Virus record (IMG/VR): IMGVR_UViG_2061766007_000180
Length of the DNA stretch: 20,000 nt
DNA from: an uncultured virus (IMG/VR IMGVR_UViG_2061766007_000180)
Lineage: Duplodnaviria; Heunggongvirae; Uroviricota; Caudoviricetes
Direction: 5' to 3' (one strand)
Position numbers and translations under genes: made by a program. The notes below the pieces were generated by a model. The model made no database searches and was not told the DNA's origin. It was given only the letters and a program-made list of their open reading frames with translations. Shown piece after piece: positions 165 through 19,487 of the stretch (its first letter is position 1; every line of letters begins with the position of its first letter).

Positions 165-401
165 TCAGAATTCAAGGATCTCGTCTCCGGTGGCCTCAAC
201 GATGAGGTCTCGGATTGCCTTGCGGTGGTTGTAAATCTCGTCAAGGAGTTCATCGTGTTCGTTACAGGTCTCCACATCCCAAAATTCGCGGTTGCCGTGC
301 TCCTCATCGAAGACCCACTCGTCGTCGCGGAGCGCGTTGTACTCCATGATCTCGTCGATGAGTTCCTTGAGGATCTCCGTGTCGGTTCTGTTCTTCTTCA
401 T
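165..401 (-). CDS. Highly acidic hypothetical protein (78 aa)
   Basis: Own promoter 430-458 and AAAGGA RBS; 25 D/E versus 9 K/R. Confidence 0.9.
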   Translation of the reverse strand: MKKNRTDTEILKELIDEIMEYNALRDDEWVFDEEHGNREFWDVETCNEHDELLDEIYNHRKAIRDLIVEATGDEILEF

Positions 402-454
402 TGTTGGTTTCCTTTCTCGTTATGTCCAGATTATACCAAACTTCCGGAAGAATG

Positions 455-730
455 TCAACCGAAAAACCTATATCCCGGATAACTTCTGATCCGGGAGGAC
501 TTGTCCGCGACATGGCTCTTCCACCGGGGAGGGAATCCGTGCTTGCGCTGATATGCGTAGTAGAAGGTGGTCGCGTCACAATCCTCTTCGAGGTATGCGC
601 AGTCTCCCCTCATGTAGGAGTACGCGCTGATCTTGTCCGCGATTCCGAGTTCCCGGAGGATCGCCTTTTCGACCTTGAGCCAACCGTGGCCGGGATCGGA
701 GTAGAAGTCAAAGACTTTCTTGATTTTCAT
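455..730 (-). CDS. Hypothetical phage-type protein with DPGHGWL / YLEEDCD motifs (91 aa)
   Basis: Start MKIKK follows promoter 762-790 and an RBS. The motifs are recalled from uncharacterised phage proteins. The stop TGA lies inside the next -35. Confidence 0.88.
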   Translation of the reverse strand: MKIKKVFDFYSDPGHGWLKVEKAILRELGIADKISAYSYMRGDCAYLEEDCDATTFYYAYQRKHGFPPRWKSHVADKSSRIRSYPGYRFFG

Positions 731-882
731 TTCGTTTCCTTTCTTCGTTCGTTGTGGCAACAGTATACACCATCTTCCGGGAGAAGTCAAGCGAAAACCC
801 TTCCGGAAAGATTTTTCTTCAAGATTGAAAATTTGCTTGACTTTTCCTGGAAAAGTGATATTTTTCCGAAAATTAGGTCGGG

Positions 883-913
883 AAAAACGGAGGCCCTCCG
901 CGAGGAGGGCCTC
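883..913 (-). terminator. Intrinsic terminator-like hairpin
   Basis: GAGGCCCTCC-gcga-GGAGGGCCTC (890-913); the A-run at 883-887 is a U-tract on the minus strand. Confidence 0.75.
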
Positions 914-932
914 AGTTTGCATCCCCTTCCTG

Positions 933-1160
933 TCAGACATCCAAGGTCACGGTCGCGAAGCAGTGTCCCTGAACATACCACGATTTCCCCCGACGAAGGG
1001 CGTAGACGAGATCTTCCAACTCGTCTTTCATGATGTCGAAAATGCCGAGTTCGGAAAGGGCGGTGGAGATTTCGTCCTCCATGGAACCTTTCATTACGGA
1101 GGCATACTCCACCGGATGTTCGGCCTCCTCGTTGATTACTTCCAAGACATTGATCTTCAT
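933..1160 (-). CDS. Hypothetical protein (75 aa)
   Basis: Promoter 1188-1216, AAAGGA RBS. Confidence 0.88.
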   Translation of the reverse strand: MKINVLEVINEEAEHPVEYASVMKGSMEDEISTALSELGIFDIMKDELEDLVYALRRGKSWYVQGHCFATVTLDV

Positions 1161-1212
1161 TTCGTTTTCCTTTCTCGTTATGTCTAGATTATATCAGACC
1201 GGAGGAGGGTTG

Positions 1213-1407
1213 TCAACCGAAAATCCCGTCTCTTTCGATCTCCCACGGCTCCTGTTCCGGAAAGTCGAGAGATTCCTCTCCGGTCTCCCGGTTCACCACC
1301 TTGAACTTTCCGTAGTATTTCTCGTAGACGATCCGCTCGGCCTCTTGTGGGGAATCGGCCTCCACTTCCCAGTTGGCCTCGAACGTGTGCGCGAAGGTGA
1401 ATTTCAT
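1213..1407 (-). CDS. Hypothetical acidic protein (64 aa)
   Basis: Start MKFTF with AAAGGAG RBS, directly after the stop of 1409-1615; its stop lies within the -35 of the next promoter. Confidence 0.85.
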   Translation of the reverse strand: MKFTFAHTFEANWEVEADSPQEAERIVYEKYYGKFKVVNRETGEESLDFPEQEPWEIERDGIFG

Positions 1408-1408
1408 G

Positions 1409-1615
1409 TCAGATCTCCTTTGGTGCGAGGTTGTAGAGCCAAGGAAACTCCTTGGCGAGTTCGTGGCTTTTGCCGAGTTGACAGGCAATGTCCAAGGCAA
1501 GATCGGCCAGTTTGTCCTGAAGTTCGCAGAGATCGTCCTGTTCCATGAGATCGTCTCCGCGCCATGCGATCTTCTGAAGGTTGACTACCTTCGCGTAGAT
1601 GTTTTCCATCGTCAT
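1409..1615 (-). CDS. Hypothetical protein (68 aa)
   Basis: Promoter 1647-1675, RBS. Confidence 0.87.
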   Translation of the reverse strand: MTMENIYAKVVNLQKIAWRGDDLMEQDDLCELQDKLADLALDIACQLGKSHELAKEFPWLYNLAPKEI

Positions 1616-1681
1616 TTCGTTTTCCTTTCCTGTTCGTTATGCCCAGATTATAGCAGATGTTCCGGAGAATGTCAACCGAAA

Positions 1682-1930
1682 TCAGACTCTCCGGATCGAA
1701 AATCCCTTCAGAAAGGTGGTTCCGGCCTCGGACTTCTCTCCGGAACGGATCATCGCGGAAGAACCTTTCCGGAGAGATCTCACGGAAGCGATCCACTCCC
1801 GGCAGTTCCCAACCGAGATGGCCTTGAAGAGGAAGTCGATTTCGTCGAGGGACATCCTCCGGTCTTTGATCGCCCCCAACTGTCCGTTGTCGGCGATGTA
1901 GGCGTAGGTCACAAGGTAGTTCTTCTTCAT
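1682..1930 (-). CDS. Hypothetical protein (82 aa)
   Basis: GGAGG RBS; the start abuts the stop of 1932-2087. Confidence 0.82.
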   Translation of the reverse strand: MKKNYLVTYAYIADNGQLGAIKDRRMSLDEIDFLFKAISVGNCREWIASVRSLRKGSSAMIRSGEKSEAGTTFLKGFSIRRV

Positions 1931-1931
1931 C

Positions 1932-2087
1932 TCATGCCTCCGGAGCGGTCTTGCGCTGGGTCTTCCAGAACCGGATCGTGTCCCGCGTCGCCTTGAGGTC
2001 GAAACGGATGTCTGCGATCTTTTGCTTCAAGGATTCGATCCTGCGCTCTTCTCGCTTGATCTCTCGGTCGATGTCTTTCTTGGTCAT
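1932..2087 (-). CDS. Small basic coiled-coil-like protein (51 aa)
   Basis: Hand-translated MTKKDIDREIKREERRIESLKQKIADIRFDLKATRDTIRFWKTQRKTAPEA; promoter 2112-2140 plus RBS. Confidence 0.85.
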   Translation of the reverse strand: MTKKDIDREIKREERRIESLKQKIADIRFDLKATRDTIRFWKTQRKTAPEA

Positions 2088-2153
2088 GTCTTGTTTTCCT
2101 TTCATGCCTAGATTATACCAAAAGGTTTGGCCCTCGTCAAGCGAAACCGGAAG

Positions 2154-2185
2154 AAAAATCCCGGGCCCTCGGACAGGCCCAGGAT
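2154..2185 (-). terminator. Intrinsic terminator-like hairpin
   Basis: ATCCCGGGCC/GGCCCAGGAT stem (the C-A mismatch is G-U on the minus strand) with an A-run, just after the DUF932 stop. Confidence 0.7.
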
Positions 2186-2194: not shown

Positions 2195-3040
2195 CTACTC
2201 CACGTCCACCGCATCCTCGACGTCATCGCCGAGTGGCTTGAAGGTCGGGTCGATGATCGACATGATGAGGTTGTTGCAGTAGCGGGAGGCGGAGGCGGCC
2301 TGTGCCGGGTTCTTGATCTGGTGGGTGGTCACCGTGCTGACCGCGTTCAGAAGGCGGAAGCAGGAGGAATCGTCGTGGTTGTTGAGCGAGGGATTCTCCA
2401 GTTCCTCCAAGACGCGCAGGAGATTCGCCGAGCCGAGGTAGGGGTTCTTGTAGAAGTAGCGGTTTCCGTTGGCCCTCACACGCCACTCTCCGTTGGCCTT
2501 GCGGACGAACGCTCCGAGGATCGAATCCGTGAGACGGGTTCCCTTCATCGTGTCGATCTGATGGTGGATCGCGTCCTTGTCCTGAAGGAAGCGGTCGAAC
2601 ACGAAGTCGATCCGGGAATCAATAGCCCCTTCGGACACGTTTCCGATGGTATGACGCATCCGGGAGGGCTGGACAATGGCCGTGAGAACGCCATTCTCGC
2701 AGCACAGGCACGAATTTCCTAGTGCTCCTGCAAACGCGAACGACTGGTCGGAGGAATTCCGGAAGCCGCACTGGAGGGTGTAGTCCGGGCGAGACTCGTT
2801 CACCACGTTCGCCACGTACATGAACCGGGTACCGTCCTTCTTCAGCGCACAGTCCTCCTTCGCGAGGACGAGGCCGAAAGACCTGGCCCTCTCGCGGAAC
2901 TTCGTGAGAATCTCCGCCGAGGAGACCGGAGAATGGAACCTCCCGCGAGGAGTCATGTCCTCATGGGCGCGGATGAAGTCCACCTCGTTCGCTCCGTCTT
3001 CGTTCCTGAACCATACGCGAGTATCTGCTATAACGCTCAT
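2195..3040 (-). CDS. DUF932-family protein (281 aa)
   Basis: GFRNSSDQSFAFAGALGNSCLCCENG...RMRHT matches the DUF932 pattern (RNSxDxS..G...CxNG...RH); AAAGGA RBS. Confidence 0.8.
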   Translation of the reverse strand: MSVIADTRVWFRNEDGANEVDFIRAHEDMTPRGRFHSPVSSAEILTKFRERARSFGLVLAKEDCALKKDGTRFMYVANVVNESRPDYTLQCGFRNSSDQSFAFAGALGNSCLCCENGVLTAIVQPSRMRHTIGNVSEGAIDSRIDFVFDRFLQDKDAIHHQIDTMKGTRLTDSILGAFVRKANGEWRVRANGNRYFYKNPYLGSANLLRVLEELENPSLNNHDDSSCFRLLNAVSTVTTHQIKNPAQAASASRYCNNLIMSIIDPTFKPLGDDVEDAVDVE

Positions 3041-3083: not shown

Positions 3084-3191
3084 TCACTTGATGAACTTGA
3101 AATCGAACTTGACGATGGTGTACTGGGAGCGGTAGTTCTCGCTCTCGACCTCGAAGGTGGAACTGGCTGGCTTCTTTGCTTTCGTCTTCAT
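3084..3191 (-). CDS. Small hypothetical protein (35 aa)
   Basis: MKTKAKK...FKFIK after promoter 3216-3244 and RBS. Confidence 0.7.
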   Translation of the reverse strand: MKTKAKKPASSTFEVESENYRSQYTIVKFDFKFIK

Positions 3192-3250
3192 CTGTTGTTT
3201 TCCTTTCATGCCCAGATTATACCAAACCGGGATAGGGTTGTCAACCGAAA

Positions 3251-3553: not shown

Positions 3554-3685
3554 CTGTCGGTTTCCTTTCATGCCCACATTATACACCTTTCCGGGAGGGA
3601 AGTCAACCGAAAATATCCAACCGGGGGAAATAGTTTCCGGAAAGGTTTTTCGCTTGACTTTCCTTCCGGATCTGGTATTTTTCCG

Positions 3686-3713
3686 AAAAATGGGCCCGGG
3701 AAAATCCCAGGCC
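3686..3713 (-). terminator. Intrinsic terminator-like hairpin
   Basis: GGCCCGGGA/TCCCAGGCC stem next to an A-run. Confidence 0.6.
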
Positions 3714-4304: not shown

Positions 4305-4435
4305 TTTCGTTTTCCTTTCTTGTTTCGTTATGCCTAGATTATACCAGATCGTCCGGGGAATGTCAAGCGAACGGCGGAAAAAGATATTTTTTTGGTTTTT
4401 TGCTTGACTTCTTGCGGAATTCCGGTATTTTTCCG

Positions 4436-4482
4436 AAAAAACCGCCCGGAGGGGCTGGCCCTCCGGGAAAGGCTTTTTTTTT
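4436..4482. terminator. Possibly bidirectional terminator
   Basis: CCCGGAGGG/CCCTCCGGG (4445-4467) with an A-run on the left and a T-run on the right. Confidence 0.7.
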
Positions 4483-4746: not shown

Positions 4747-4809
4747 CTTCTTTCCTTTCTCGTTTCGTTGTTCGTTATACTTAGATTATAGCAGATGTTC
4801 CGGTGGAAG

Positions 4810-5070
4810 TCAAGCAAAAGACTTCCTGCGAAGTTCCACAAGTCTGTCAGCCATCGCGGCGCGAAGCGCCTTGATCGTCCGGACTCCGCGATTCCACATG
4901 GACTGAACCGTGGAAACGATCCACTCCTCGTATTCGTCCGTGTGTCCGCCATCCTCCGGAACAGGCTCAAGGCCAGTCTCCTCGTAATATACGACAAACC
5001 ACTCGTTCTGGACATCGTTGAAGATGACCGCATCCAGAAGTTCGTCCGCGCTATTGAAGACGTTTTCCAT
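4810..5070 (-). CDS. Hypothetical acidic protein (86 aa)
   Basis: AGGAG RBS; the stop lies inside a -35 box. Confidence 0.85.
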   Translation of the reverse strand: MENVFNSADELLDAVIFNDVQNEWFVVYYEETGLEPVPEDGGHTDEYEEWIVSTVQSMWNRGVRTIKALRAAMADRLVELRRKSFA

Positions 5071-5381: not shown

Positions 5382-5439
5382 TTCGTTTTTCCTTTCTTGT
5401 TTCGTTGTGTCCAAATTATACCAAACCGGAAGGCCGGTG

Positions 5440-5679
5440 TCAAGCGGAAACCTTCTCGCTGAAGATTATTTCCGTGTAATCCCGGTCACATCCGTTCTTG
5501 TTCTTGTCGTGCCAAAACCGGGAGGACTTGTACTCGTAGAGATCCTTCCGGGAATTGACGTAGTGATCTTCCGAATAGAACGTGCTCTGCGTGACGCGCT
5601 TCCCGTTGACGTAGTAGTGTGTCGCGTGGAGCGTTCTGATTCCGGTGAAGCAACTGAACTCGATAATGAGGAATTTCAT
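5440..5679 (-). CDS. Hypothetical protein (79 aa)
   Basis: Start MKFLII after promoter 5702-5730; the stop lies inside the next -35. Confidence 0.83.
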   Translation of the reverse strand: MKFLIIEFSCFTGIRTLHATHYYVNGKRVTQSTFYSEDHYVNSRKDLYEYKSSRFWHDKNKNGCDRDYTEIIFSEKVSA

Positions 5680-5804
5680 CTTCTTGTCCTTTCGTGTCCA
5701 CATTATACCAAACCGGAAAAGAGATGTCAACCGAAACTTTCCGGAAGATTTTTTTTTTTCGATTTCGGTTGACTTTGCTGGAGGATGTGCTATTTTTCCG
5801 AAAG

Positions 5805-6948: not shown

Positions 6949-7009
6949 TCTTCTGTTCCTTTCATGCCTAGATTATACCAGAAGTCCTGGCCCTCGTCAA
7001 GCGAAAAGA

Positions 7010-7288: not shown

Positions 7289-7351
7289 GTCTTGTTTTCC
7301 TTTTATGCCTAGAGTATACCAAAAGGCTTGGCCCCTGTCAACCAAAAAAAT

Positions 7352-8251: not shown

Positions 8252-8316
8252 GGGTTCTGTTCCTTTCGTTCCTATGTCCAGATTATACCAAACCGCTCCC
8301 CCTTTGTCAACCGAAA

Positions 8317-8643: not shown

Positions 8644-8772
8644 TGTCTGTTCCTTTCCTGTTATGGCTAGATTATATCAGATTGTTCCCACGAAGTCAAG
8701 CAAAGGAGAAATTCTTCCGGAAATTGTTTTTTCGCTTGACTTTCTTTCCGGAAACGGTATTTTTCCGAAAAG

Positions 8773-8841
8773 CCGATCCGGGAAATTCCTGGCCCGGATC
8801 GGTCAAAAGAAAAAACCTCCCGGTCTCTTTCACCCGGGAGG
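8773..8841 (-). terminator. Tandem hairpins / terminator
   Basis: CCGATCCGGG/CCCGGATCGG (8773-8802) and CCTCCCGG/CCGGGAGG (8816-8841), with an A-run between them. Confidence 0.7.
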
Positions 8842-9571: not shown

Positions 9572-9638
9572 TGTCTGTTCCTTTCCTGTCATGCCTAGAT
9601 TATACCAAACCGCTCCCCTTTTGTCAACCGAAAACCTC

Positions 9639-9842: not shown

Positions 9843-9976
9843 GTCTTGTTTTCCTTTCATGCTCAAATTATATCAGAATTTCCGAGGAGAGTCAAGCAAA
9901 GAAAGAATTTTTCCTAAAATTGATTTTTCGCTTGACTTTCTCTGAGAAAATGGTAGTTTTCCGAAAAGTCCGAACG

Positions 9977-10005
9977 AAAAAGGCCGGGCCCTCTCAGGCC
10001 CGGCC
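9977..10005 (-). terminator. Intrinsic terminator after the tRNA-like RNA
   Basis: GGCCGGGCC/GGCCCGGCC plus an A-run; a near-identical copy lies at 11459-11487. Confidence 0.8.
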
Positions 10006-10405: not shown

Positions 10406-10769
10406 TCCTGTTGGTTGTTTGGTTAGATTCTATCAGATCTTCTGGGACTTGTCAAGCGAAAATGGATTATCATTCAACGATAAATTCTTCTCCGTTCTTT
10501 CCGGCCTCGTATGCCTTTTTCATATAAGAGATGATATCGTTGCATGAAATGAGACTTCTTTCTATGATGGCATCTTCGGGACATTCACAGAGAGGGCCGA
10601 CATACTCGTCAGCAATACGATTCCCATCCTTATCATATATAGTCATGGAATCCGAAGAGTGCCCCATGTCATCTGCATCTTCATCGATCAAATAGACTAT
10701 CTTCATTTCTTTTTTCCTGTTGGTTGTTTGGTTAGATTCTATCAGATCTTCTGGGACTTGTCAAGCGAA
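10406..10769. repeat. 55-bp perfect direct repeat (10406-10460 and 10715-10769)
   Basis: TCCTGTTGGTTGTTTGGTTAGATTCTATCAGATCTTCTGGGACTTGTCAAGCGAA is present twice, 309 bp apart. Confidence 0.95.
10470..10706 (-). CDS. Acidic hypothetical protein, AT-rich gene (78 aa)
   Basis: Promoter 10736-10764; CECPEDA and AYEAGK motifs. Confidence 0.87.
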   Translation of the reverse strand: MKIVYLIDEDADDMGHSSDSMTIYDKDGNRIADEYVGPLCECPEDAIIERSLISCNDIISYMKKAYEAGKNGEEFIVE

Positions 10770-10772
10770 GTT

Positions 10773-11093: not shown

Positions 11094-11152
11094 GGTCTTG
11101 TTTCCTTTCATGCCTAGATTATACCAAACTGGAAGGTCGGTGTCAACCGAAA

Positions 11153-11326: not shown

Positions 11327-11458
11327 GGTCTTTTCCTTTCATGCCCATATCATACCAAAAAGTCAGGCCGAAGTCAAGCAAACCGAAAAGAAAAGATTTT
11401 CTGGCCTTTTCGCTTGACTTTTCTCCGGAATCGCGTATTTTTCCGAAAGATCGGGGCG

Positions 11459-11487
11459 AAAAAGGCCGGGCCCTCGCAGGCCCGGCC
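11459..11487 (-). terminator. Intrinsic terminator
   Basis: GGCCGGGCC/GGCCCGGCC plus an A-run. Confidence 0.78.
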
Positions 11488-11714: not shown

Positions 11715-11769
11715 CGTTTTCTCCCTATGCCAAGATTATACCAGATGTTCCCCCTTTTGTCAACCGAAA

Positions 11770-12060: not shown

Positions 12061-12123
12061 TGTTGTGTTCCTTTCTCGTTTGTGCCTAGATTATAGCAAA
12101 CTGTCTTTTTCGTGTCAAGCAAA

Positions 12124-12270: not shown

Positions 12271-12317
12271 CTGTTTTCTCCTTTGTGTCTAGATTATAGC
12301 AAACCGGAATGTGAAAG

Positions 12318-12446
12318 TCAACCAAAATCCTTCCAGTTCTTCGGGTTGTTGAGATACCGGCGGGTCTTCGCCTTGCGCTTCTTGTCAACGATTATGCGCG
12401 TGGTAGTCTTGATCGCCGGAACGAACCTGTGCTTGCGGATGTCCAT
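12318..12446 (-). CDS. Small, very basic peptide (42 aa)
   Basis: MDIRKHRF...WKDFG after promoter 12471-12499. Confidence 0.78.
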   Translation of the reverse strand: MDIRKHRFVPAIKTTTRIIVDKKRKAKTRRYLNNPKNWKDFG

Positions 12447-12566
12447 CGCCTGATTTCCTTTCGTGGCAACATTATACCAAACGATTCGGAGAATGTCAAG
12501 CAAAGGAAAATGTTTTTCGTCTGGTCTATTTTTGCTTGACTTTCTGGAAGAAAGGTGTATTTTTCC

Positions 12567-12597
12567 GAAAACAAGACCCGGATCAAATCCGGGTCTT
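12567..12597 (-). terminator. Intrinsic terminator-like hairpin
   Basis: AAGACCCGGAT/ATCCGGGTCTT (12573-12597). Confidence 0.75.
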
Positions 12598-13054: not shown

Positions 13055-13217
13055 TGTCGTTTCCTTTCCTGTTATGCCCAAATTATATCAAACTCTTCCG
13101 GAAATGTCAAGCAAAGGGAAAAAGATCTTTCACGGGCGGTTTTCGCTTGACTTTTCTAGACTTTCCTCTATTTTCCGAAAGTTCCCGGGCCGGAAATCTC
13201 CTGGCCCGTGCGATCCT

Positions 13218-13553: not shown

Positions 13554-13623
13554 TTCGGTGTTCCTTTCATTCATGCCTAGATTATACCAAACCGGAAGAT
13601 CGTTGTCAAGCGAAATTCCCGAT

Positions 13624-13878: not shown

Positions 13879-14040
13879 ATGCCGTTTTCCTTTCCTTTGT
13901 GCTTCTATTATACCAAAAAGTTCCGGCCCCGTCAAGCGAACGCCGCGAAAAAACGATCGGCCCTCGGCGAAAGGCCGGAGCGGCCTTTCGGAAAAATACA
14001 AAAACTGGCCCATATGTCAAGCAAAAAATCAATTTCGGTC

Positions 14041-14069
14041 AAAAAAGTCTGGCCCTTGCGGGCCAGACT
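14041..14069 (-). terminator. Intrinsic terminator
   Basis: 10-bp stem, GCAA tetraloop on the minus strand, U-tract. Confidence 0.82.
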
Positions 14070-14762: not shown

Positions 14763-14811
14763 GGGTTGATTTCCTTTCATGCCTAGATTATACCAAACCG
14801 GAAGGGCAATG

Positions 14812-15048
14812 TCAATCGAAATTCCGAACTTTTCTCTTAAAACGGCAATATCCCTCTTCGGTACAATGGCCGCAGGTGTAATGACGGCAGAGACCAAGAA
14901 AACTTTCACAACGTGGAAGGCGGGAAAATTCCTCCTTTTGATACCGCATGACGATTTCCCTATATTCGTCCGAAGTGACGGACTGGTTTAAGATCGTCCA
15001 GTCGGACGGCGTCATGGAAAGAGTTTCAAGTTTTTCGGCGAGGTTCAT
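14812..15048 (-). CDS. Hypothetical protein with Cys-rich C-terminus (78 aa)
   Basis: Promoter 15073-15101; the stop lies inside the next -35. Confidence 0.83.
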   Translation of the reverse strand: MNLAEKLETLSMTPSDWTILNQSVTSDEYREIVMRYQKEEFSRLPRCESFLGLCRHYTCGHCTEEGYCRFKRKVRNFD

Positions 15049-15232
15049 GGTTTGTTTTCCTTTCATGCTTAGATTATAGCAAACATCGGCGAGGTAGTCA
15101 ATCAAAAAAAGAAAAGATCGGCATAATTCACTTTTTGATTGACTTTTAATCAAAAAATTGTATTTTTCCGAAATGACAAAAAAAGGCATGGCCCTCCGGC
15201 CACACCCTCCGTTTTTCTTCGGCCCCCTCAAT

Positions 15233-15487: not shown

Positions 15488-15546
15488 GGTTTGTTTTCCT
15501 TTCATGTCTAGATTATACCAAATCGGAAGAGGGTTGTCAACCGAAA

Positions 15547-15750: not shown

Positions 15751-15802
15751 TTTTGTTTCCTTTCTCGTTATGTCTAGATTATAGCAGAAGGACAGAGGAA
15801 TG

Positions 15803-15925
15803 TCAAGCAAAAATGCTTGCGACTTTCATACCGAGCGCGAACACCGTAATCAGCAATCCGATCAAGGAAACTACGATTATTTTGTCAAGTTCACGGTTGA
15901 TTTCTGCGATTTCTTTGTCGTTCAT
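15803..15925 (-). CDS. Single-TM peptide (40 aa)
   Basis: Hand-translated MNDKEIAEINRELDKIIVVSLIGLLITVFALGMKVASIFA; promoter 15949-15977. Confidence 0.8.
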   Translation of the reverse strand: MNDKEIAEINRELDKIIVVSLIGLLITVFALGMKVASIFA

Positions 15926-16046
15926 GGTCTTGTTCCTTTCGTGCCTAAATTATACCAAAAGGCCGTGTCCGCGTCAATCAAAACCGGAAGAAAAGATTTT
16001 TCGGTCTTTTCGGTTGACTTCCGGAGGATCTTTGATATTTTTCCGA

Positions 16047-16077
16047 AAAGAAAAGACGCGGCCATCTGGCCGCGTCT
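16047..16077 (-). terminator. Intrinsic terminator
   Basis: AGACGCGGCC/GGCCGCGTCT plus an A-run. Confidence 0.8.
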
Positions 16078-16178: not shown

Positions 16179-16420
16179 TAAACTCCGTACAAGTAAATGG
16201 CATTTATCTTATCCACCACATAGACCAGTTCACCAAGGGTCAGGTGGCGGTCACCGATGGACAACTTGTACCCACCATGTCCTTGGTAGATGTGGATTTC
16301 TCCCTGTGGCTCTTCGGGGAGAACACGGACTGTCCGATTGAATTTCGGATTCTTGTTGTGAATAACAACATTCTCTCCCCTGCACATCAAATCAACCTCG
16401 TATTGCATCTCTTTAGTCAT
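16178..16420 (-). CDS. Hypothetical protein (80 aa)
   Basis: Promoter 16443-16471, RBS. Confidence 0.86.
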   Translation of the reverse strand: MTKEMQYEVDLMCRGENVVIHNKNPKFNRTVRVLPEEPQGEIHIYQGHGGYKLSIGDRHLTLGELVYVVDKINAIYLYGV

Positions 16421-16547
16421 GGTCTTTTCCTTTCATGCCTAGATTATAGCAAATTGCGATTCCGGTGTCAATCAAAACCTAAAACTAAAAATTTCTTATG
16501 TTTTCGCTTGACTTCTCGAAGATTCGTTCTATTTTTCCGAAAGGGTC

Positions 16548-16569
16548 GGCCAGTCCGCTAGGACTGGCC
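16548..16569 (-). terminator. Hairpin after the WYL_2-like gene
   Basis: GGCCAGTCC/GGACTGGCC; weak U-tract. Confidence 0.55.
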
Positions 16570-16591
16570 TCATTCTCTCTTGGCAGTGCAA

Positions 16592-16915
16592 TCACAAAAC
16601 TGCGATTTTTCCTTCAACTGTCCGCAGGTTGATGGTGCGTGGCTGGACTTCTCCCTCGCCGATGATCTCCTGTATGGTAATCATGTCGGCGGCGCACTTT
16701 GAGGCCACGATGCGACGGCCGATGTTCGTGGTGCGCAGACCAAACGTTTCGTTATATTCGCGGCCAGGAACGAAGGTCACTGGACGGAGTGTCCCATCCT
16801 TTTTGCGGAAGGTCAACCGAACGCGACGATTCTGATGGCGCAGAAGGAAGTTCGCGATTTCCAAGACCTTCGCGTCTGTGGAGTGGTTTGCGACATTGAT
16901 GAGTGACTGGTTCAT
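16592..16915 (-). CDS. WYL_2 / SH3-like beta-barrel protein (107 aa)
   Basis: VRLTFRKKDGTLR ... RTINLRTV pattern; promoter 16954-16982. Confidence 0.72.
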   Translation of the reverse strand: MNQSLINVANHSTDAKVLEIANFLLRHQNRRVRLTFRKKDGTLRPVTFVPGREYNETFGLRTTNIGRRIVASKCAADMITIQEIIGEGEVQPRTINLRTVEGKIAVL

Positions 16916-16978
16916 GGTTTTTCTCCTGTTGTGTTGTTTTCGTTTATGCCTAGATTATACCAAACTTTCCGATGAATG

Positions 16979-17098
16979 TCAAGCGTTCCGAAGAGGAATT
17001 TTCGCGAGAATGTGGATGACTGTCCTCGCTTGCCTGTCTGAGATGATTCCGGCCTTGACTGCGGATTTGAGGTCTGCGATGAGTTTCTTGTAGTTCAT
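16979..17098 (-). CDS. Small basic peptide (39 aa)
   Basis: Hand-translated MNYKKLIADLKSAVKAGIISDRQARTVIHILAKIPLRNA; promoter 17123-17151. Confidence 0.78.
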   Translation of the reverse strand: MNYKKLIADLKSAVKAGIISDRQARTVIHILAKIPLRNA

Positions 17099-17152
17099 GT
17101 CTTGTTTTCCTTTCATGCCTCTATTATACCAAATTTCTCCAGTATAGTCAAG

Positions 17153-17326
17153 TTATTTCTTGAAGATTTTCTTATAAGGATTCGGAGGATACCATACAGG
17201 ATAGACGTAGACTTTCATTCCAAGTTCAAGCGCGAGACGTTCGGCATAAGCAAGTGCATCGGCATGGGTTCTGAACCTGACGCGTTTTTCGGTTCCGTCT
17301 TCGTATCTCACTTCATACAGTTTCAT
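17153..17326 (-). CDS. Small hypothetical protein (57 aa)
   Basis: Hand-translated MKLYEVRYEDGTEKRVRFRTHADALAYAERLALELGMKVYVYPVWYPPNPYKKIFKK; promoter 17350-17378. Confidence 0.82.
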   Translation of the reverse strand: MKLYEVRYEDGTEKRVRFRTHADALAYAERLALELGMKVYVYPVWYPPNPYKKIFKK

Positions 17327-17378
17327 GGTTCGTTTCCTTTCATGTCTAGATTATACCAAACCTTCGCGTGGATGTCAA

Positions 17379-17639
17379 TCAAAACGGACAGATATTGATT
17401 TTGCTATCATACCAGTTGATATTCTCCCATTTGTATTTTCCGCTGAAGAGAAACTTCCCGTCCTCGTAGACGTTCATGCAAATACTGTCGCAGTTTCCAC
17501 CAACATCGGGATATTCCTTCTTGAAATAGCCAAGGAGGGATTCCTTTGCCGCCGAGACGTCCTTGACGATGATTTCAAGACTATCGTTCCATCCGGGGTC
17601 ATACTCGCTAGACCAGCAGAACTCGATTTTCAGTTTCAT
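17379..17639 (-). CDS. Hypothetical protein (86 aa)
   Basis: Start MKLKIE after promoter 17664-17692. Confidence 0.86.
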   Translation of the reverse strand: MKLKIEFCWSSEYDPGWNDSLEIIVKDVSAAKESLLGYFKKEYPDVGGNCDSICMNVYEDGKFLFSGKYKWENINWYDSKINICPF

Positions 17640-17836
17640 TGTCTGTTTTCCTTTCATGCCTAGATTATACCAAACTCCAAGGCTGGTGTCAATCAAAACC
17701 TAAAACTAAAAATTTCTCATATTTTCACTTGACTTCTTGAAGATTCGTGCTATTTTTCCGAAAGGTTCTTCCCGAAAAGACCCCGGCCCCCTAGGAAAAG
17801 GGCCTGGCTCCATCGGGAAAATCGGGTTCCGGCCTG

Positions 17837-18052
17837 TCAGACAAGCCGGAAGTGGGAGAATTTGATCGTTTCGGTTGCCCGCCACACGCGCTTTCTCGTG
17901 AAAAAGGCAATCTGATTCTTGAACTCCTCGTACAACTGGTCAAATACCATCTCTATTGCGACATCCGCGTCCGGAGCCTGCACACGAACCTCACGGAGGG
18001 TTGTGTTTCCGGTATCGATCTCGACCTCAACGATGTAGTCTGTCATGTCCAT
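17837..18052 (-). CDS. Hypothetical protein (71 aa)
   Basis: Start MDMTDY after promoter 18080-18108. Confidence 0.85.
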   Translation of the reverse strand: MDMTDYIVEVEIDTGNTTLREVRVQAPDADVAIEMVFDQLYEEFKNQIAFFTRKRVWRATETIKFSHFRLV

Positions 18053-18135
18053 GGTTCTGTTCCTTTCGTTCATGCCTAGATTATACCAAACGATCGTTCC
18101 GATGTCAAGTGAAATCGAAACGACCGTCAACATAT

Positions 18136-18474
18136 TCAATCTATTTCCAGACATCTATGTATCTCAATACCCAAAGGAATTGTAGTCTCACGCCACCATG
18201 AACGATCAACCGCATATCCACCTCTCATCTGGAACGGGTGATTATGTTTTTCACAGTAATCAAAATCGTTTGAAGGGTGGCATTCCTTTGTCCATTCAAT
18301 CCATTTGCCATCTTCAAAGACTTCAATTTTGGTCTTAAATGCCTCTCTTTTGAAGATTTTGAACTTGACAGATTTCCCGATGGTGTCACTTCCGTCATCG
18401 TAATACAGGAACTTCACTTCCTCACCATCAGAAAAGTTTTTCTCAATCAAAGCAATCAATTCTTCTTTTTTCAT
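18136..18474 (-). CDS. Hypothetical protein, AT-rich gene (112 aa)
   Basis: Promoter 18500-18528, GAGGA RBS. Confidence 0.87.
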   Translation of the reverse strand: MKKEELIALIEKNFSDGEEVKFLYYDDGSDTIGKSVKFKIFKREAFKTKIEVFEDGKWIEWTKECHPSNDFDYCEKHNHPFQMRGGYAVDRSWWRETTIPLGIEIHRCLEID

Positions 18475-18534
18475 GGTCTTTTCCTCTCTTTGTGCCTAGA
18501 TTATACCAAACGATCATTCCGGTGTCAAGCGAAA

Positions 18535-18636
18535 TCAGTACGTAATCTCATAGACTATCGCCAAAAGAATGGCTGCTAGGAGAACACCTACGACTACCGT
18601 CACCGCCGACAGCAGAGGAAGCAGTAAAATTTCCAT
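18535..18636 (-). CDS. Single-TM peptide (33 aa)
   Basis: Hand-translated MEILLLPLLSAVTVVVGVLLAAILLAIVYEITY; AGGAG RBS. Confidence 0.72.
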   Translation of the reverse strand: MEILLLPLLSAVTVVVGVLLAAILLAIVYEITY

Positions 18637-18665
18637 TTCTTTTCTCCTATTGATCAAATTATTGA

Positions 18666-18806
18666 TTATGCTGCCATTATGTCTTCGTACCCGAAGACCA
18701 GGGCCTGCGACACGTTGAAGTTGAACAGGTACATGATGTCCATGAGTTTGTCCAACTGGGAGTCTGTGAGAGACTTTAGGATTTCATGTTGCCTTGAGAT
18801 TCTCAT
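18666..18806 (-). CDS. Small hypothetical protein (46 aa)
   Basis: Start MRISRQ, GGAGG RBS, promoter 18828-18856. Confidence 0.82.
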   Translation of the reverse strand: MRISRQHEILKSLTDSQLDKLMDIMYLFNFNVSQALVFGYEDIMAA

Positions 18807-18901
18807 GTGCTTTCCTCCTATGCCTATATTATACCGAATCGTTGCCTTCCGGTCAAGCAAAACCTTCCGAAAAAAAGATCGTGGCCGAAGAGAAATTTCG
18901 C

Positions 18902-18930
18902 TTGACTTTGATTTGAAGACATGATATAAT
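18902..18930 (+). promoter_or_regulatory. Plus-strand sigma70-type promoter
   Basis: TTGACT-N17-TATAAT with TG extension. Confidence 0.75.
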
Positions 18931-19016
18931 ATTAGGGGGAGGTATTTTCGGAAAATATCACAAATCTTAAAATAGTTAAGCAAAAAGATAAAGATTTTTT
19001 AGTTTTCTTTGTTTGC

Positions 19017-19045
19017 TTGACTGTTGTCCAATATTCTGGTATAAT
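19017..19045 (+). promoter_or_regulatory. Plus-strand P-type promoter
   Basis: TTGACT-N17-TATAAT-CTAGGCAT. Confidence 0.9.
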
Positions 19046-19082
19046 CTAGGCATACTGAATGAAACGAGAAGGAGATCAAACC

Positions 19083-19229
19083 ATGTTCACCAGAGCGCAA
19101 ATTCTAAGACTTTTCTCGGAAGAATCGTTCTTCCACAACGGACAGGTTGTCGTGTTGATTAACGGTCAATATCTATCACTTGACCAGTTGATAAAAACCC
19201 TTCTCATAATGGGGTTAATTGTGGAATAA
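19083..19229 (+). CDS. Small hypothetical protein (48 aa)
   Basis: Hand-translated MFTRAQILRLFSEESFFHNGQVVVLINGQYLSLDQLIKTLLIMGLIVE; AAGGAG RBS. Confidence 0.78.
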   Translation: MFTRAQILRLFSEESFFHNGQVVVLINGQYLSLDQLIKTLLIMGLIVE

Positions 19230-19242
19230 TCTGTCATTTTGC

Positions 19243-19271
19243 TTGACTGGATCATAACATTCTGGTATAAT
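19243..19271 (+). promoter_or_regulatory. Plus-strand P-type promoter
   Basis: TTGACT-N17-TATAAT-CTAGGCAT. Confidence 0.9.
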
Positions 19272-19313
19272 CTAGGCATAAAACGAAAACCACCTAACAA
19301 GAAAGGAAAAACC

Positions 19314-19487
19314 ATGAACGAAACGAATGCCACGAAACCTGCTGCCGGAATGATTCAGCCCCGGTATGGGAAGTACGGAATAACTGGATGGGATGCAATC
19401 GTCACCGGACTTGACCTTGTGTTTTTCGCCACGAAAAAGAAAGCCGCAGATTGGATGAAAGCGAACGGCTACGAAATTGTGGGATAA
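19314..19487 (+). CDS. Small hypothetical protein (57 aa)
   Basis: Start MNETNA with AAAGGA RBS. Confidence 0.83.
   Translation: MNETNATKPAAGMIQPRYGKYGITGWDAIVTGLDLVFFATKKKAADWMKANGYEIVG

What the first reader, a model, noticed from the sequence alone, without database searches (positions are those of the whole stretch)
165..19487. Array of about 43 self-promoted mini-gene cassettes built on one repeated promoter-RBS unit
Seen: 41 minus-strand and 2 plus-strand copies of a roughly 55-bp unit (-35, 17 bp, extended -10, CTAGGCAT, AAAGGA RBS, ATG), about one every 450 bp, each driving an unrelated small ORF. Known: phage early regions (SPO1 host-takeover module, T5 pre-early genes, PeSL cassettes of RB49-type T4 phages) have repeated strong promoters and small host-interacting genes. 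Inference: the density and one-promoter-per-gene regularity look like an integrase-free gene-cassette array. The promoter would serve as both expression signal and recombination homology for a payload of anti-defence or host-takeover genes. It could also act as an RNA-polymerase sink.
Basis: partly seen in the sequence, partly recalled or inferred. Interest (0 to 1): 0.88.

Follow-up and report, generated by a model that had tools for sequence, protein, structure and literature searches.

The report
Dense promoter-per-gene array, phage early region
An uncultured cattle-gut phage places the same near-perfect host-type promoter and ribosome-binding unit in front of almost every one of about 50 tiny unknown genes, and related phages gain, lose and reorder these genes at the units, much like a known gene-shuffling system of T4-type phages.

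Summary
The window holds 41 minus-strand and 3 plus-strand copies of TTGACA-17-(TG)nTATAAT-CTAGGCAT-AAAGGA-ATG. A one-mismatch pattern finds 42 copies against 0.01 expected. Copies occur about every 449 bp. 34 units drive one gene, 6 drive two and 1 drives four, and no two genes are paralogs.

It is most likely the early, host-takeover-type region of a large uncultured tailed phage with a Gram-positive-type host. Each boundary carries a backward-facing, weaker promoter-like element (TTGACT-16-TATTTT-TCCGAAA), usually 37 nt from the forward -35.

Five related metagenomic contigs, and contigs from three other studies, share genes at 52-95% amino-acid identity but are not collinear. Cassettes are missing, added, reordered or inverted. 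Several homology breaks lie inside units while the promoter stays in register.

So the cassette-shuffling reading is partly supported. Selection for intact genes could also place breaks in the intergenic units. No circles, transcription starts or payload functions were shown.

The closest described system is the PeSL cassettes of T4-type phages, but most units here lack the stem-loop. I rate it a new variant of a known kind, of moderate interest.

The parts
18828..18856 (-). forward unit (-35 to -10), TTGACC/TATAAT; drives genes 18666-18806 and 18535-18636
18500..18528 (-). forward unit; drives gene 18136-18474
18080..18108 (-). forward unit; drives gene 17837-18052
   Evidence: chimeric relative to L044
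17664..17692 (-). forward unit (long type); drives gene 17379-17639
17350..17378 (-). forward unit; drives gene 17153-17326
17123..17151 (-). forward unit; drives gene 16979-17098
16954..16982 (-). forward unit; drives gene 16592-16915; the TGA inside TTGAC is the stop of gene 16979-17098
16443..16471 (-). forward unit (long type); drives gene 16178-16420
15949..15977 (-). forward unit (long type); drives gene 15803-15925
15778..15806 (-). forward unit; drives gene 15547-15750; the TGA inside TTGAC is the stop of gene 15803-15925
15512..15540 (-). forward unit; drives gene 15233-15487
15073..15101 (-). forward unit (long type); drives gene 14812-15048
14787..14815 (-). forward unit; drives gene 14097-14762 (Pfam GP88 family, E 1.1e-12)
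13907..13935 (-). forward unit; drives gene 13624-13878
13581..13609 (-). forward unit; drives gene 13218-13553
13082..13110 (-). forward unit (long type); drives gene 12602-13054
12471..12499 (-). forward unit (long type); drives gene 12318-12446
12293..12321 (-). forward unit; drives gene 12124-12270
12090..12118 (-). forward unit; drives gene 11770-12060
11735..11763 (-). forward unit; drives ORF 11310-11714 (doubtful 3' part, see Noticed in passing)
11349..11377 (-). forward unit (long type, -10 TATGAT); drives gene 11153-11326
11118..11146 (-). forward unit; drives gene 10773-11093; in two other studies its leader is joined to gene 8317-8643
10736..10764 (-). forward unit (-10 TAGAAT); drives gene 10470-10706; 64/66 identical to the unit at 10427-10455
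10427..10455 (-). forward unit (-10 TAGAAT); drives gene 10167-10397
9867..9895 (-). forward unit (long type); drives gene 9639-9842
9599..9627 (-). forward unit; drives gene 8873-9571
8671..8699 (-). forward unit (long type); drives gene 8317-8643
8282..8310 (-). forward unit; drives gene 7523-8251
7313..7341 (-). forward unit (-10 TATACT); drives gene 7010-7288
6972..7000 (-). forward unit; drives four genes: 6712-6948, 6469-6702, 6188-6472, 5805-6038
5702..5730 (-). forward unit (long type); drives gene 5440-5679
5415..5443 (-). forward unit; drives genes 5094-5381 and 4810-5070
4785..4813 (-). forward unit; drives gene 4492-4746
4338..4366 (-). forward unit (long type); drives genes 4005-4304 and 3719-3991
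3578..3606 (-). forward unit (long type, no TG extension); drives gene 3251-3553
3216..3244 (-). forward unit; drives genes 3084-3191 and 2195-3040 (281 aa; some of its 79 relatives carry PF06067/DUF932)
2112..2140 (-). forward unit; drives genes 1932-2087 and 1682-1930
1647..1675 (-). forward unit; drives genes 1409-1615 and 1213-1407
1188..1216 (-). forward unit; drives gene 933-1160
762..790 (-). forward unit (long type, -10 TATACT, no TG); drives gene 455-730
430..458 (-). forward unit; drives gene 165-401; a further ORF (3-149) follows without its own unit, so the array runs off the window
18902..18930 (+). plus-strand perfect promoter without CTAGGCAT, RBS or ORF; back-to-back with the unit at 18856
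19017..19045 (+). plus-strand complete unit (long type); drives gene 19083-19229
19243..19271 (+). plus-strand complete unit; drives gene 19314-19487; its homolog in L044 lies in the same orientation as the other cassettes
837..864 (+). backward promoter-like element TTGACT-16-TATTTT, followed by TCCGAAA
3654..3681 (+). backward promoter-like element
4404..4431 (+). backward promoter-like element; the only one whose downstream hairpin is followed by a T-run in the backward direction
5769..5796 (+). backward promoter-like element (no hairpin; upstream gene stop 9 nt away)
8736..8763 (+). backward promoter-like element
9932..9959 (+). backward promoter-like element (-10 TAGTTT)
11414..11441 (+). 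backward promoter-like element
12536..12563 (+). backward promoter-like element
13147..13174 (+). backward promoter-like element; the 13174->8820 joint of two other studies lies at its edge
15139..15166 (+). backward promoter-like element
16014..16041 (+). backward promoter-like element
16508..16535 (+). backward promoter-like element
17729..17756 (+). backward promoter-like element
19568..19596 (+). same element type, outside the array, in the G/C-run-rich right end
13993..14020 (-). same element type (TTGACA-16-TATTTT) in forward orientation, followed by hairpin 13958-13977 and a T-run: a gene-less mini unit
890..913 (-). terminator hairpin plus T-run ending a gene block
3693..3713 (-). terminator hairpin plus T-run
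4445..4467 (-). terminator hairpin plus T-run (A-run before it, so possibly bidirectional)
8772..8803 (-). imperfect GC hairpin before the conserved element (coordinates approximate)
9982..10005 (-). terminator hairpin plus T-run; nearly identical to the one at 11464-11487
11464..11487 (-). terminator hairpin plus T-run
12573..12597 (-). terminator hairpin plus T-rich tail
13186..13208 (-). GC hairpin before the conserved element
14046..14069 (-). terminator hairpin plus T-run after the GP88-family gene
15181..15210 (-). terminator hairpin plus T-run
16054..16077 (-). terminator hairpin plus T-run
16548..16569 (-). GC hairpin before the conserved element
17785..17804 (-). terminator-like hairpin
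19490..20000 (.). apparently non-coding right flank: many G- and C-homopolymer runs, and a perfect 15-nt tandem repeat (19951-20000, 3.3 copies) that runs off the window

Best explanation
This is the early (host-takeover-type) region of a large, uncultured tailed phage from cattle-gut samples. Its host probably has a Gram-positive-type transcription and translation apparatus.

The host's primary-sigma RNA polymerase is expected to fire from 41 leftward and 2-3 rightward near-consensus promoters: -35 TTGACA, a 17-bp spacer, an extended -10 TnTGnTATAAT, and a conserved CTAGGCAT around the predicted start. Each promoter is inferred to make a very short leader of about 14-30 nt that is little more than an AAAGGA Shine-Dalgarno, in front of one to four small ORFan genes.

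About two thirds of the units sit directly on the stop codon of the gene before them. In 8 cases the TGA inside TTGAC is that stop codon. Transcripts are therefore inferred to be nested. They are inferred to end at about 14 intrinsic terminators, which cut the array into blocks.

Each block boundary is a fixed composite: terminator hairpin and T-run, then a backward-facing weaker promoter-like element (TTGACT-16-TATTTT-TCCGAAA), about 30 A/T-rich bases, then the forward unit.

The roughly 65-nt units are copies of one another, so they also serve as patches of homology. Recombination between units, within one genome or between co-infecting relatives, deletes, inserts, inverts or moves whole gene-plus-unit cassettes and leaves an intact promoter behind. 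This is how PeSL cassettes of T4-type phages work.

What is shown: the anatomy, the relatedness of the units, purifying selection on the genes, and cassette-level mosaicism with some breaks inside intact units. What is inferred: promoter and terminator activity, early timing, the host type, and that the units, not merely the gene boundaries, are the recombination substrate.
For: Anatomy and excess over chance:
- 42 pattern matches against 0.01 expected.
- 69 promoter-like sites against 13.3 +/- 3.7 in shuffles, 24 of them perfect.
- Conserved columns run from TTTYG to AAAGGAA.

The units are related by descent. 35 spacer pairs share at least 10 of 14 positions, against 0.42 in shuffles. The units at 10764 and 10455 are 64/66 identical from TTCGC to the ATG and flank unrelated genes.

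The genes are real. dN/dS is 0.03-0.33 for the 9 of 10 gene pairs where dS could be estimated.

Phage origin:
- 5 of 50 proteins hit PHROG families, and 1 hits Pfam GP88.
- GP88-type homologs occur in 3 phage records.
- A distant relative, L052, shares 4 proteins and lies in an 81.6-kb IMG/VR contig.
- That contig has a terminase, a clamp loader and a sigma factor.

Mosaicism:
- L044 keeps 5 of 10 window cassettes in order, lacks 5, adds one, and has one in the opposite relative orientation.
- L036 has the order reversed.
- L004, L010 and L019 intersperse unrelated genes.
- The joint 8643->11101 occurs in runs of two other studies, with the same 11 extra letters and sides of 219 and 240 nt. 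It couples the leader of one unit to the ATG of another gene.
- The block 8820-9998 is relocated in the same two runs.

Breaks in units:
- 10 of 24 listed loose ends fall in units (P = 0.003) and 6 of 15 HSP ends do (P = 0.02).
- For gene 17837-18052 (92% amino-acid identity, pS 0.25), homology to L044 starts at the -10. Only 5 of 17 spacer bases agree, yet the L044 unit keeps perfect geometry.
- For gene 16592-16915, homology starts three bases upstream of the -35 hexamer, at CGCTTGAC.

Block structure: 13-14 hairpins plus conserved elements at fixed distances.
Against: - No RNA data. No RNA run holds the stretch, so no promoter, terminator or timing is demonstrated.
- Units occupy about 3.2 kb of roughly 5 kb of non-coding DNA. 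Among breaks that lie in non-coding DNA, the share inside units (about 10 of 14) is close to what chance gives. Selection against broken genes could therefore explain the enrichment (and my count).
- Heterogeneity of synonymous divergence among six adjacent L044 genes is only borderline: chi-square 11.0, p = 0.051 on four-fold sites.
- The relatives are five short contigs of 2-2.6 kb plus Logan contigs. Repeats of this kind can cause chimeric assemblies. Many listed joints have short sides (25-43 nt) and may be unit-to-unit misalignments.
- The host is not identified. No relative was found in 185,579 species genomes.
- No payload function was found.
- The distant relative has only 5 such promoters in 81.6 kb, so the array is not a lineage-wide constant.
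Confidence: 0.7

Rival explanations
1. The units are only an expression device: strong host promoters for fast, high early expression. The mosaicism among relatives arises from ordinary illegitimate or short-homology recombination anywhere. Selection then keeps only products with intact genes, which puts the surviving junctions in the intergenic units by default.
For: Units make up most of the non-coding space, so enrichment of breaks in units relative to non-coding DNA is not significant (and my count of 10 of 14). Several breaks lie at gene 3' ends outside units: 16587, 16162, 19486, 2198. Gene-boundary mosaicism is the general rule in phage genomes (established knowledge, recalled).
Against: Junctions inside promoters keep the exact 17-bp geometry and consensus (L044 unit at 590). 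Random joining would rarely give this. Two 64/66-identical units bracket one gene, as expected after homologous insertion of a circle or before its excision. Spacer subfamilies show that the units are copied or converted.
Confidence: 0.2
2. The apparent rearrangements, or even the array order itself, are artefacts of short-read metagenome assembly across 30-66-nt repeats shared by co-occurring strains.
For: Logan contigs of the probable source run end at units (727-755, 2093-2121, 16467-16493, 17673-17688). Many listed joints have sides of only 25-43 nt.
Against: One source-run contig spans 10740-16493 with 0 differences across 15 units. The 8643->11101 joint has sides of 219-240 nt, carries 11 letters absent from the window, and recurs in two studies. 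L010 and L019 show the same arrangement. The relatives differ from the window by 5-30% in sequence, so they are other genomes, not mis-joined copies of this one.
Confidence: 0.04
3. The main role of the array is to act as a sink that titrates host RNA polymerase away from host genes, with the small ORFs of secondary importance.
For: 24 perfect and 17 near-perfect consensus promoters with TG extension lie within 18.7 kb. About 14 extra backward promoter-like sites have no gene behind them.
Against: The ORFs are under purifying selection (dN/dS 0.03-0.33), and each unit carries a conserved Shine-Dalgarno at a fixed distance from an ATG. So the products matter. No data on polymerase occupancy exist. 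The idea is compatible with the best explanation rather than an alternative to it.
Confidence: 0.08
4. The region is not from a phage. It is the leading or establishment region of a conjugative plasmid or integrative element of a Gram-positive bacterium.
For: Some relatives of the 281-aa protein carry PF06067/DUF932. A 64-aa protein is a near-threshold match to DpnD/PcfM (24.5 bits against a cut-off of 25). I recall both families from conjugative elements, which is recollection and was not tested.
Against: The only relative with long context lies in a viral contig with a terminase, a head-tail adaptor and a clamp loader. PHROG and GP88 hits are phage families. No relaxase, coupling protein or replication gene is in the window.
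Confidence: 0.03

Closest known systems
PeSL (promoter-early stem-loop) cassettes of T4-type phages RB49/phi1, T4/PST and KVP40/nt-1 (PMC2839356, passages read; PMC4122927, abstract and outline read)
   Same: [quoted passage not shown] Both have a strong host sigma-70-type promoter and a Shine-Dalgarno, sit mostly in front of ORFans, and come in dozens of copies. In both, indels and replacements between relatives are bounded by the element. The crossover zones reported for PeSL (between the -10 and the ATG, or upstream of the -35) resemble the break positions seen here.
   Different: Only 13-14 of 41 units here have a stem-loop, and it is a separate upstream terminator. Spacers show no excess hairpin potential. 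Density is far higher: 41 in 18.7 kb, against about 52 per whole genome in the passages read. The promoter is the Gram-positive style with a TG extension and AAAGGA. A fixed backward promoter-like element at each terminator is not part of the PeSL description in the passages I read. Mini-circles are untested here. No T4-type core genes were seen.
SPO1 host-takeover module (26 genes in a 12.4-kb terminal region; PMC6873191, passages read; Stewart et al. 1998 seen only as a reference)
   Same: Both are a cluster of small early genes, each or nearly each with promoters and ribosome-binding sites typical of highly expressed genes, read by host polymerase, in a large virulent phage of a Gram-positive host.
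   Different: There are roughly twice as many genes here, and about one promoter per 1.2 genes. I found no similarity to any GenBank phage at DNA level. A position in a terminal repeat cannot be tested from the window. Host shut-off activity is untested.
Early promoters of Staphylococcus Kayvirus vB_SauM-515A1 (PMC7698491, passages read)
   Same: The consensus architecture is the same: TTGACW, a 17-bp spacer, a TRTGN extension and TATANT, with the start about 6 nt after the -10. There are many copies and Rho-independent terminators.
   Different: The Kayvirus has 58 promoters for 193 genes across the whole genome (about 1 per 3.3 genes), against 41 for 50 genes here. No conserved start region or leader, and no cassette shuffling, is described in the passages read. 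I did not consult its Table S2, which lists the promoters.
Integron gene-cassette arrays
   Same: Both are arrays of small, unrelated, swappable genes bounded by a repeated element.
   Different: There is no integrase and no attC-type site here. Integron cassettes are promoterless and share one promoter. Here each cassette brings its own.
Earlier notes of this scan on other gut or rumen phage windows (e1-5868971, e1-5761178): forward promoter arrays with backward promoters at block ends
   Same: Both show about 40 forward host-type promoters plus about 14-15 backward promoters with no gene behind them, placed at transcription-unit boundaries next to GC hairpins.
   Different: These are unchecked AI notes on other genomes, with no shared sequence words with this window. 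Here the backward -10 is weak (TATTTT, 16-bp spacer, 9 of 12). Only 1 of 13 in-array elements has a T-run after the hairpin, so 'short hairpin RNAs only' is not supported for this window.

Membership tests
PeSL cassettes (T4-type phages) | Strong sigma-70-type promoter plus Shine-Dalgarno filling the gap between the upstream stop and the downstream ATG | tested here: met
   41+3 consensus promoters. 23 of 40 lie within 15 nt of the upstream stop, and the -10-to-ATG distance is 20-38 nt. Activity was not measured.
PeSL cassettes (T4-type phages) | A stable stem-loop is part of each motif (between or overlapping the boxes, or just up- or downstream) | tested here: not met
   The mean folding energy of the promoter region is -3.55, against -3.70 +/- 0.26 with shuffled spacers. 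Only 13-14 of 41 units have a GC hairpin, which lies 60-110 nt upstream as a separate terminator.
PeSL cassettes (T4-type phages) | Preferentially upstream of ORFans in variable regions | tested here: met
   49 of 50 proteins have no Pfam family above threshold, and 45 of 50 have no PHROG. Relatives differ in gene content.
PeSL cassettes (T4-type phages) | Insertions, deletions and replacements between related phages are bounded by the motif | tested here: inconclusive
   Breaks are enriched in units against the whole window, but not clearly against non-coding DNA. Only five short relatives plus Logan contigs were available.
PeSL cassettes (T4-type phages) | Recombination between neighbouring motifs yields mini-circles | not testable with these tools
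   This needs inverse PCR or long or raw reads. The runs were available only as contigs.
PeSL cassettes (T4-type phages) | Carried by a T4-type myovirus | not testable with these tools
   The window has no core genes. The only long relative is distant: 48% identity in one protein.
SPO1-type host-takeover module | Cluster of small early genes with strong host promoters and strong ribosome-binding sites | tested here: met
   by sequence only.
SPO1-type host-takeover module | Located in the terminal redundancy of the genome | not testable with these tools
   Only 20 kb is visible. The right end turns into non-coding G/C-run DNA with a tandem repeat, which could be an end or an origin.
SPO1-type host-takeover module | Sequence relationship to Herelleviridae | tested here: not met
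   Megablast of the whole window against 50,697 phage records gave no match. tblastn with two proteins gave none or only distant non-Herelleviridae hits. Only 2 of the 50 proteins were searched by tblastn.
SPO1-type host-takeover module | Products shut off host processes | not tested
   No function was found for any product.
Integron | Tyrosine-recombinase integrase next to the array | tested here: not met
   No integrase family among the 50 proteins. DNA outside the window was not seen.
Integron | attC recombination sites between promoterless cassettes | tested here: not met
   The boundaries are promoters. No Rfam or structured family was found. Each cassette has its own promoter.

The most novel reading that the evidence does not exclude
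A lineage of cattle-gut phages carries a self-shuffling expression array. A portable unit of about 65 nt (promoter, start region and Shine-Dalgarno, sometimes supplying the previous gene's stop codon) is both the expression socket and the recombination joint for single ORFan genes. Every transcription block is closed by a fixed-geometry insulator made of a terminator and a backward-firing promoter 37 nt from the next forward promoter. The backward promoter would be a functional part, working as an antisense or roadblock device or as an RNA-polymerase dock. That composite is not described in the literature I could search.
Probability: 0.3. Interest if true: 0.75.

Novelty: new variant of a known kind. 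Interest (0 to 1): 0.55.

Why it matters
If the units are true recombination joints, this array shows the PeSL principle outside T4-type phages of Gram-negative hosts and in a much denser form. Regulatory cassettes that carry their own promoter would then be shuffling orphan genes here too. That would make it a general route by which phages trial new early genes, the class that includes host-takeover and anti-defence functions.

The array is also a ready catalogue of about 50 small early proteins for functional screens. It supplies a set of 41 natural variants of one strong promoter and leader, which is useful for studying promoter context.

The terminator plus backward-promoter boundary recurs with fixed spacing. 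It may be an undescribed way of insulating adjacent transcription units.

Tried and rejected
Searches for relatives:
- The window's own genome is not held.
- Megablast of the window against GenBank phages gave no match.
- The unit pattern in IMG/VR gave 2 isolated matches, neither related.
- The unit pattern in 185,579 species genomes gave 20 single matches, none sharing proteins.
- The 281-aa protein gave nothing in the phage records, IMG/VR or, as a profile, the species genomes.
- Its profile in IMG/VR found one distant relative, L052, with no units in 20 kb.
- Of the 50 metagenome stretches from the pattern scan, only 5 share genes with the window. The rest are chance matches or other phage groups.

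Expression: no RNA holder was listed for the stretch, so expression could not be examined.

RNA genes: no tRNA or tmRNA and no Rfam family.

Payload function:
- Pfam gave 1 of 50 proteins above threshold (GP88), and PHROGs gave 5 of 50, all of unknown function.
- NCBIfam gave 0 of 14 above cut-off, and the PDB sequence profile gave none.
- The AlphaFold model of the 281-aa protein is good (pLDDT 85.4), but Foldseek against the PDB gave no match with E <= 0.001 and all TM scores were below 0.2.
- The ESM Atlas gave only viral hypothetical clusters for the 242-aa protein and nothing for the 232-aa protein.

Ideas rejected or left open:
- Leaderless translation from the ATG in CATG. The two ATGs are not consistently in frame, and many units have CATA or CACA.
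- A stem-loop inside the promoter spacer, as in some PeSL classes. There is no excess folding energy.
- Tight bidirectional terminators behind the backward elements. Only 1 of 13 has a T-run.

Literature and earlier notes:
- A five-term search for a dense early-promoter array returned 0 papers.
- A search for antisense or divergent promoters at phage early terminators returned 1 irrelevant paper.
- A DUF932 search listed no paper containing that term.
- Earlier-notes look-ups by place and by sequence found nothing.

Full report
**Observation.** Reading the minus strand shows the repeated unit at once. A strict regular expression finds 38 minus-strand and 3 plus-strand copies. The pattern TTGAC-N15-TGNTATAAT with one mismatch finds 42, against a mean of 0.01 in 200 shuffles. 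The union is 41 minus and 3 plus. The independent scanner lists the same sites among 69 promoter-like sites, against 13.3 +/- 3.7 in shuffles, and 24 are perfect 12/12 matches with a TG extension. Anchored on the -35, the conserved columns read TTTYG-N-TTGACA, a variable spacer ending in TTTGG, TATAAT, CTAGGCAT, then A-rich AAAGGAA and the ATG 20-38 nt after the -10. The third plus-strand copy, at 18902, is a perfect promoter without the leader, RBS or ORF.

**Genes.** Fifty minus-strand ORFs of 33-281 aa follow the units: 34 units have one gene, 6 have two and 1 has four. There are no paralogs among 52 proteins. In 8 units the TGA inside TTGAC is the stop codon of the gene before, and 23 of 40 units lie within 15 nt of that stop. 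The genes are real. Ten gene pairs with related contigs were compared. dN/dS was 0.03-0.33 in the nine pairs where dS could be estimated, and the tenth was saturated. Their functions are unknown. One of the 50 proteins passes a Pfam threshold (GP88), 5 of 50 hit PHROGs of unknown function, and near-threshold hits to DpnD/PcfM and DUF2188 mean little. NCBIfam, a PDB sequence profile, a good AlphaFold model (pLDDT 85.4) with Foldseek, and the ESM Atlas gave nothing usable.

**What the replicon is.** No genome is held for the window, and nothing similar exists among 50,697 GenBank phage records at DNA level. The stretch is held almost completely by two runs of one cattle-gut sample, which is the probable source, and in part by runs of three other studies. 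The 281-aa protein has 79 metagenomic relatives at 48-89% identity, some with PF06067/DUF932, on contigs of up to 111 kb. The only relative with long context is L052, which shares four proteins with the window and lies in an 81.6-kb IMG/VR contig rated 44% complete. That contig has a terminase, a head-tail adaptor, a clamp loader, RNA ligases, methyltransferases and a phage sigma factor. It has only 5 such promoters in the whole record and none in the 20 kb around the shared gene. So this is a large tailed phage lineage in which a host-sigma early programme followed by a phage-sigma later programme is plausible. The dense array is a feature of closer relatives only. The TG-extended -10 and the AAAGGA Shine-Dalgarno match the Gram-positive style documented for a Staphylococcus Kayvirus (PMC7698491, passages). 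The host itself is not identified.

About 14 units are 'long'. On the gene strand, 60-85 nt upstream of the -35, lies TTTCGGAAAAATA-N17-AAGTCAAGCGAAAA, directly after a GC-rich hairpin with a T-run. Read on the other strand, this is TTTTCGC-TTGACT-16 nt-(TG)nTATTTT-TCCGAAA. That is an inverted copy of the -35 half of the unit with a weaker -10, and the scanner scores it 9 of 12. Fourteen copies lie on the plus strand. For the 13 inside the array, the backward -35 is 37-48 nt from the forward -35, and exactly 37 nt in 8 of them. In 12 of the 13, the terminator hairpin of the preceding block follows within a few bases. Only one of these hairpins (at 4404) has a T-run after it in the backward direction, so any backward transcripts here would mostly run on as antisense RNA. 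One further copy, at 14020-13993, lies in the forward orientation and is followed by a hairpin and T-run with no gene. The array is thus about 14 terminator-bounded blocks, each with one to several nested promoters. Two earlier notes of this scan (e1-5868971, e1-5761178) describe the same forward and backward layout in other gut or rumen phages. They share no sequence words with this window and are unchecked. I saw the element here before reading them. Their claim of 'short hairpin RNAs only' is not supported for this window.

**The units are copies of one another.** The 14 spacer positions that a promoter does not constrain are far too similar. 35 of 946 pairs share at least 10 of 14 positions, against 0.42 in composition-preserving shuffles. 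Clear subfamilies exist, among them CTTCCGGTTTGG, CCGGAAYGATCG, GGGCCAA and AAAGGGGGAGCGG. CCGG occurs in 17 of 44 spacers, against 2.6 expected. The units at 10764 and 10455 are 64/66 identical from TTCGC to the ATG and flank the unrelated gene 10470-10706. That is the picture expected after a circle is inserted by homologous recombination, or before one is excised. The long units at 17692 and 16471 are 89% identical over 123 nt.

**Relatives are not collinear.** Scanning metagenome contigs for the unit returned 50 stretches, and five of them share genes with the window.
- **L044** carries, in one orientation, homologs of genes 18666-18806, 19314-19487 (on the opposite strand in the window), 17837-18052, 17379-17639, 16592-16915, one new ORF, and 15803-15925. 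It lacks five window cassettes.
- **L036** carries homologs of 165-401 and 1213-1407, then two or three new ORFs, then 2195-3040, which is the reverse of the window order.
- **L004, L010 and L019** intersperse shared genes with unrelated ones. L010 and L019 show the same arrangement as each other.

Contigs of three other studies laid on the window give well-supported joints.
- 8643->11101 appears in two studies, with sides of 219 and 240 nt and the same 11 extra letters. It couples the leader of unit 11146 to the ATG of gene 8317-8643.
- The block 8820-9998 is moved next to 13174 in the same two runs.
- A 712-letter replacement lies at 1602-1788.
- A 188-letter insertion lies at 18797-18816.

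Between 26% and 71% of laid contigs run on into unlike sequence.

**Where the breaks fall.** Of the 24 loose ends listed (of 341), 10 lie in units, which cover 16% of the window (P = 0.003). Collapsed to distinct places, the figure is 8 of 16. Of 15 ends of HSPs of 100 nt or more that are not at contig ends, 6 lie in units (P = 0.02). Three of 8 ends of the four long-sided joints do. Units, however, fill about 3.2 kb of roughly 5 kb of non-coding DNA. Of the 14 listed loose ends that are non-coding or at an ATG, 10 are in units, which is close to chance. The enrichment alone therefore does not separate unit-mediated recombination from selection for intact genes.

The better argument is the state of the junction units.
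- For gene 17837-18052 (92% amino-acid identity, pS 0.25), homology with L044 begins at the -10 and only 5 of 17 spacer bases agree. Yet the L044 unit is a perfect TTGAC-N18-TATAAT.
- For gene 16592-16915, homology begins three bases upstream of the -35 hexamer, at CGCTTGAC.
- For gene 17379-17639, the whole long unit travels with the gene.

In-register chimeric promoters are what homologous exchange between units predicts. Synonymous divergence differs between neighbouring L044 genes (pS 0.25 to 0.98). On four-fold sites the heterogeneity is only borderline (p = 0.051).

**Artefact check.** Logan contigs of the source run break at a few units, but one spans 10740-16493 without a difference across 15 units. 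Recurrent long-sided joints in two studies, and the agreement of L010 with L019, argue against chimeras. Many short-sided joints (25-43 nt) may be unit-to-unit alignments, and I give them no weight.

**Comparison with known systems.** PeSLs of T4-type phages are composite elements from the upstream stop to the downstream ATG. They have an AT-rich stretch, a strong sigma-70-type promoter, a stem-loop in one of five positions and a Shine-Dalgarno. There are about 52 per genome, mostly before ORFans. Recombination between them gives indels and mini-circles, with crossovers mapped between the -10 and the ATG or upstream (PMC2839356, passages; PMC4122927, abstract). The present units work like PeSLs in most respects but fail one defining feature, because most have no stem-loop. 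They are also much denser, belong to a different promoter style and probably a different host group, and come with the backward element. The SPO1 host-takeover module has 26 small genes in 12.4 kb with strong promoters and RBSs (PMC6873191, passages). The Kayvirus has 58 early promoters for 193 genes (PMC7698491, passages). Both are functional parallels with lower promoter density and no detectable sequence relationship. Integrons are excluded: there is no integrase and no attC, and every cassette has its own promoter.

**Verdict.** The most likely reading (0.7) is a phage early region in which one strong promoter-leader-RBS unit serves nearly every gene and also acts as a recombination joint. 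I rate it a new variant of a known kind (PeSL-like). Its extreme density, the stop-codon-sharing units and the fixed terminator/backward-promoter boundary are what make it worth a modest follow-up.

Noticed in passing
window 837-864, 3654-3681, 4404-4431, 5769-5796, 8736-8763, 9932-9959, 11414-11441, 12536-12563, 13147-13174, 15139-15166, 16014-16041, 16508-16535, 17729-17756 (+): Backward-facing promoter-like elements, TTTTCGC-TTGACT-16-(TG)nTATTTT-TCCGAAA, sit at every block boundary, 37-48 nt from the forward -35. They face the preceding terminator hairpin and have no gene behind them. Their function is unknown (antisense RNA, roadblock or insulator, or polymerase dock).
   Followed up: partly
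window 13958-14020 (-): One copy of the same element lies in the forward orientation (TTGACA-16-TATTTT). It is followed at once by a hairpin and a T-run and then by the normal unit at 13935. It looks like a gene-less mini transcription unit of about 45 nt.
   Followed up: no
window 19490-20000: To the right of the divergent promoters, the sequence looks non-coding and is full of G- and C-homopolymer runs. It holds another copy of the TTGAC-16-TATTTT-TCCGAAA element (19568-19596) and ends in a perfect 15-nt tandem repeat (19951-20000, 3.3 copies) that runs off the window. It may be an origin, a packaging site or a genome end.
   Followed up: partly
window 10395-10460 and 10704-10769: Two 66-nt units that are 97% identical, with an atypical -10 (TAGAAT) and their own leader (CTAACCAAACAACCAACAGGA), bracket gene 10470-10706. 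This gene is a candidate for a recently inserted or excisable cassette.
   Followed up: partly
window, spacers of the units: CCGG, mostly as TCCGG or CCGGA and sometimes as the palindrome TTCCGGAA, occurs in 17 of 44 promoter spacers against 2.6 expected, and also in several backward-element spacers. This could reflect shared descent, an operator, or a methylation site. The distant relative encodes DNA methyltransferases.
   Followed up: partly
window, core of the backward element (TTTTC-C-GAAAA): The conserved TTTTCCGAAAA is an inverted repeat around one base. From memory it resembles the core of the CodY box of Gram-positive bacteria (AATTTTCWGAAAATT), except for the centre base. This is a recalled resemblance and was not tested.
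   Followed up: no
window 11310-11714 (-): This 134-aa, low-complexity ORF reads straight through a terminator hairpin (11464-11487), the backward element and the forward unit at 11377. Its 3' half is probably not coding, or the gene call is wrong.
   Followed up: no
window 15001-19000 against the rest: G+C drops to 0.40-0.48 in 15-19 kb, against 0.50-0.58 elsewhere. This fits cassettes of different origin.
   Followed up: no
L034, L050, L008, L026, L037, L024, L023: A different group of metagenomic phage contigs has its own repeated promoter-leader-RBS unit (TTGACA-17-TATAAT-AGACACATTGTTTAACACAAAGGAGCG) at similar density. It shares no genes with the window. Arrays of this kind seem common in uncultured phages.
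   Followed up: no
L036 (units at 11, 662 and 1138 in the reversed orientation): In this relative, three of four units use -10 TACAAT or TATAAT with a different leader (ACAGGCATCTTCAAACGAAAGAAAGGAAAAG). Unit subfamilies therefore differ between related genomes while the genes are shared.
   Followed up: no
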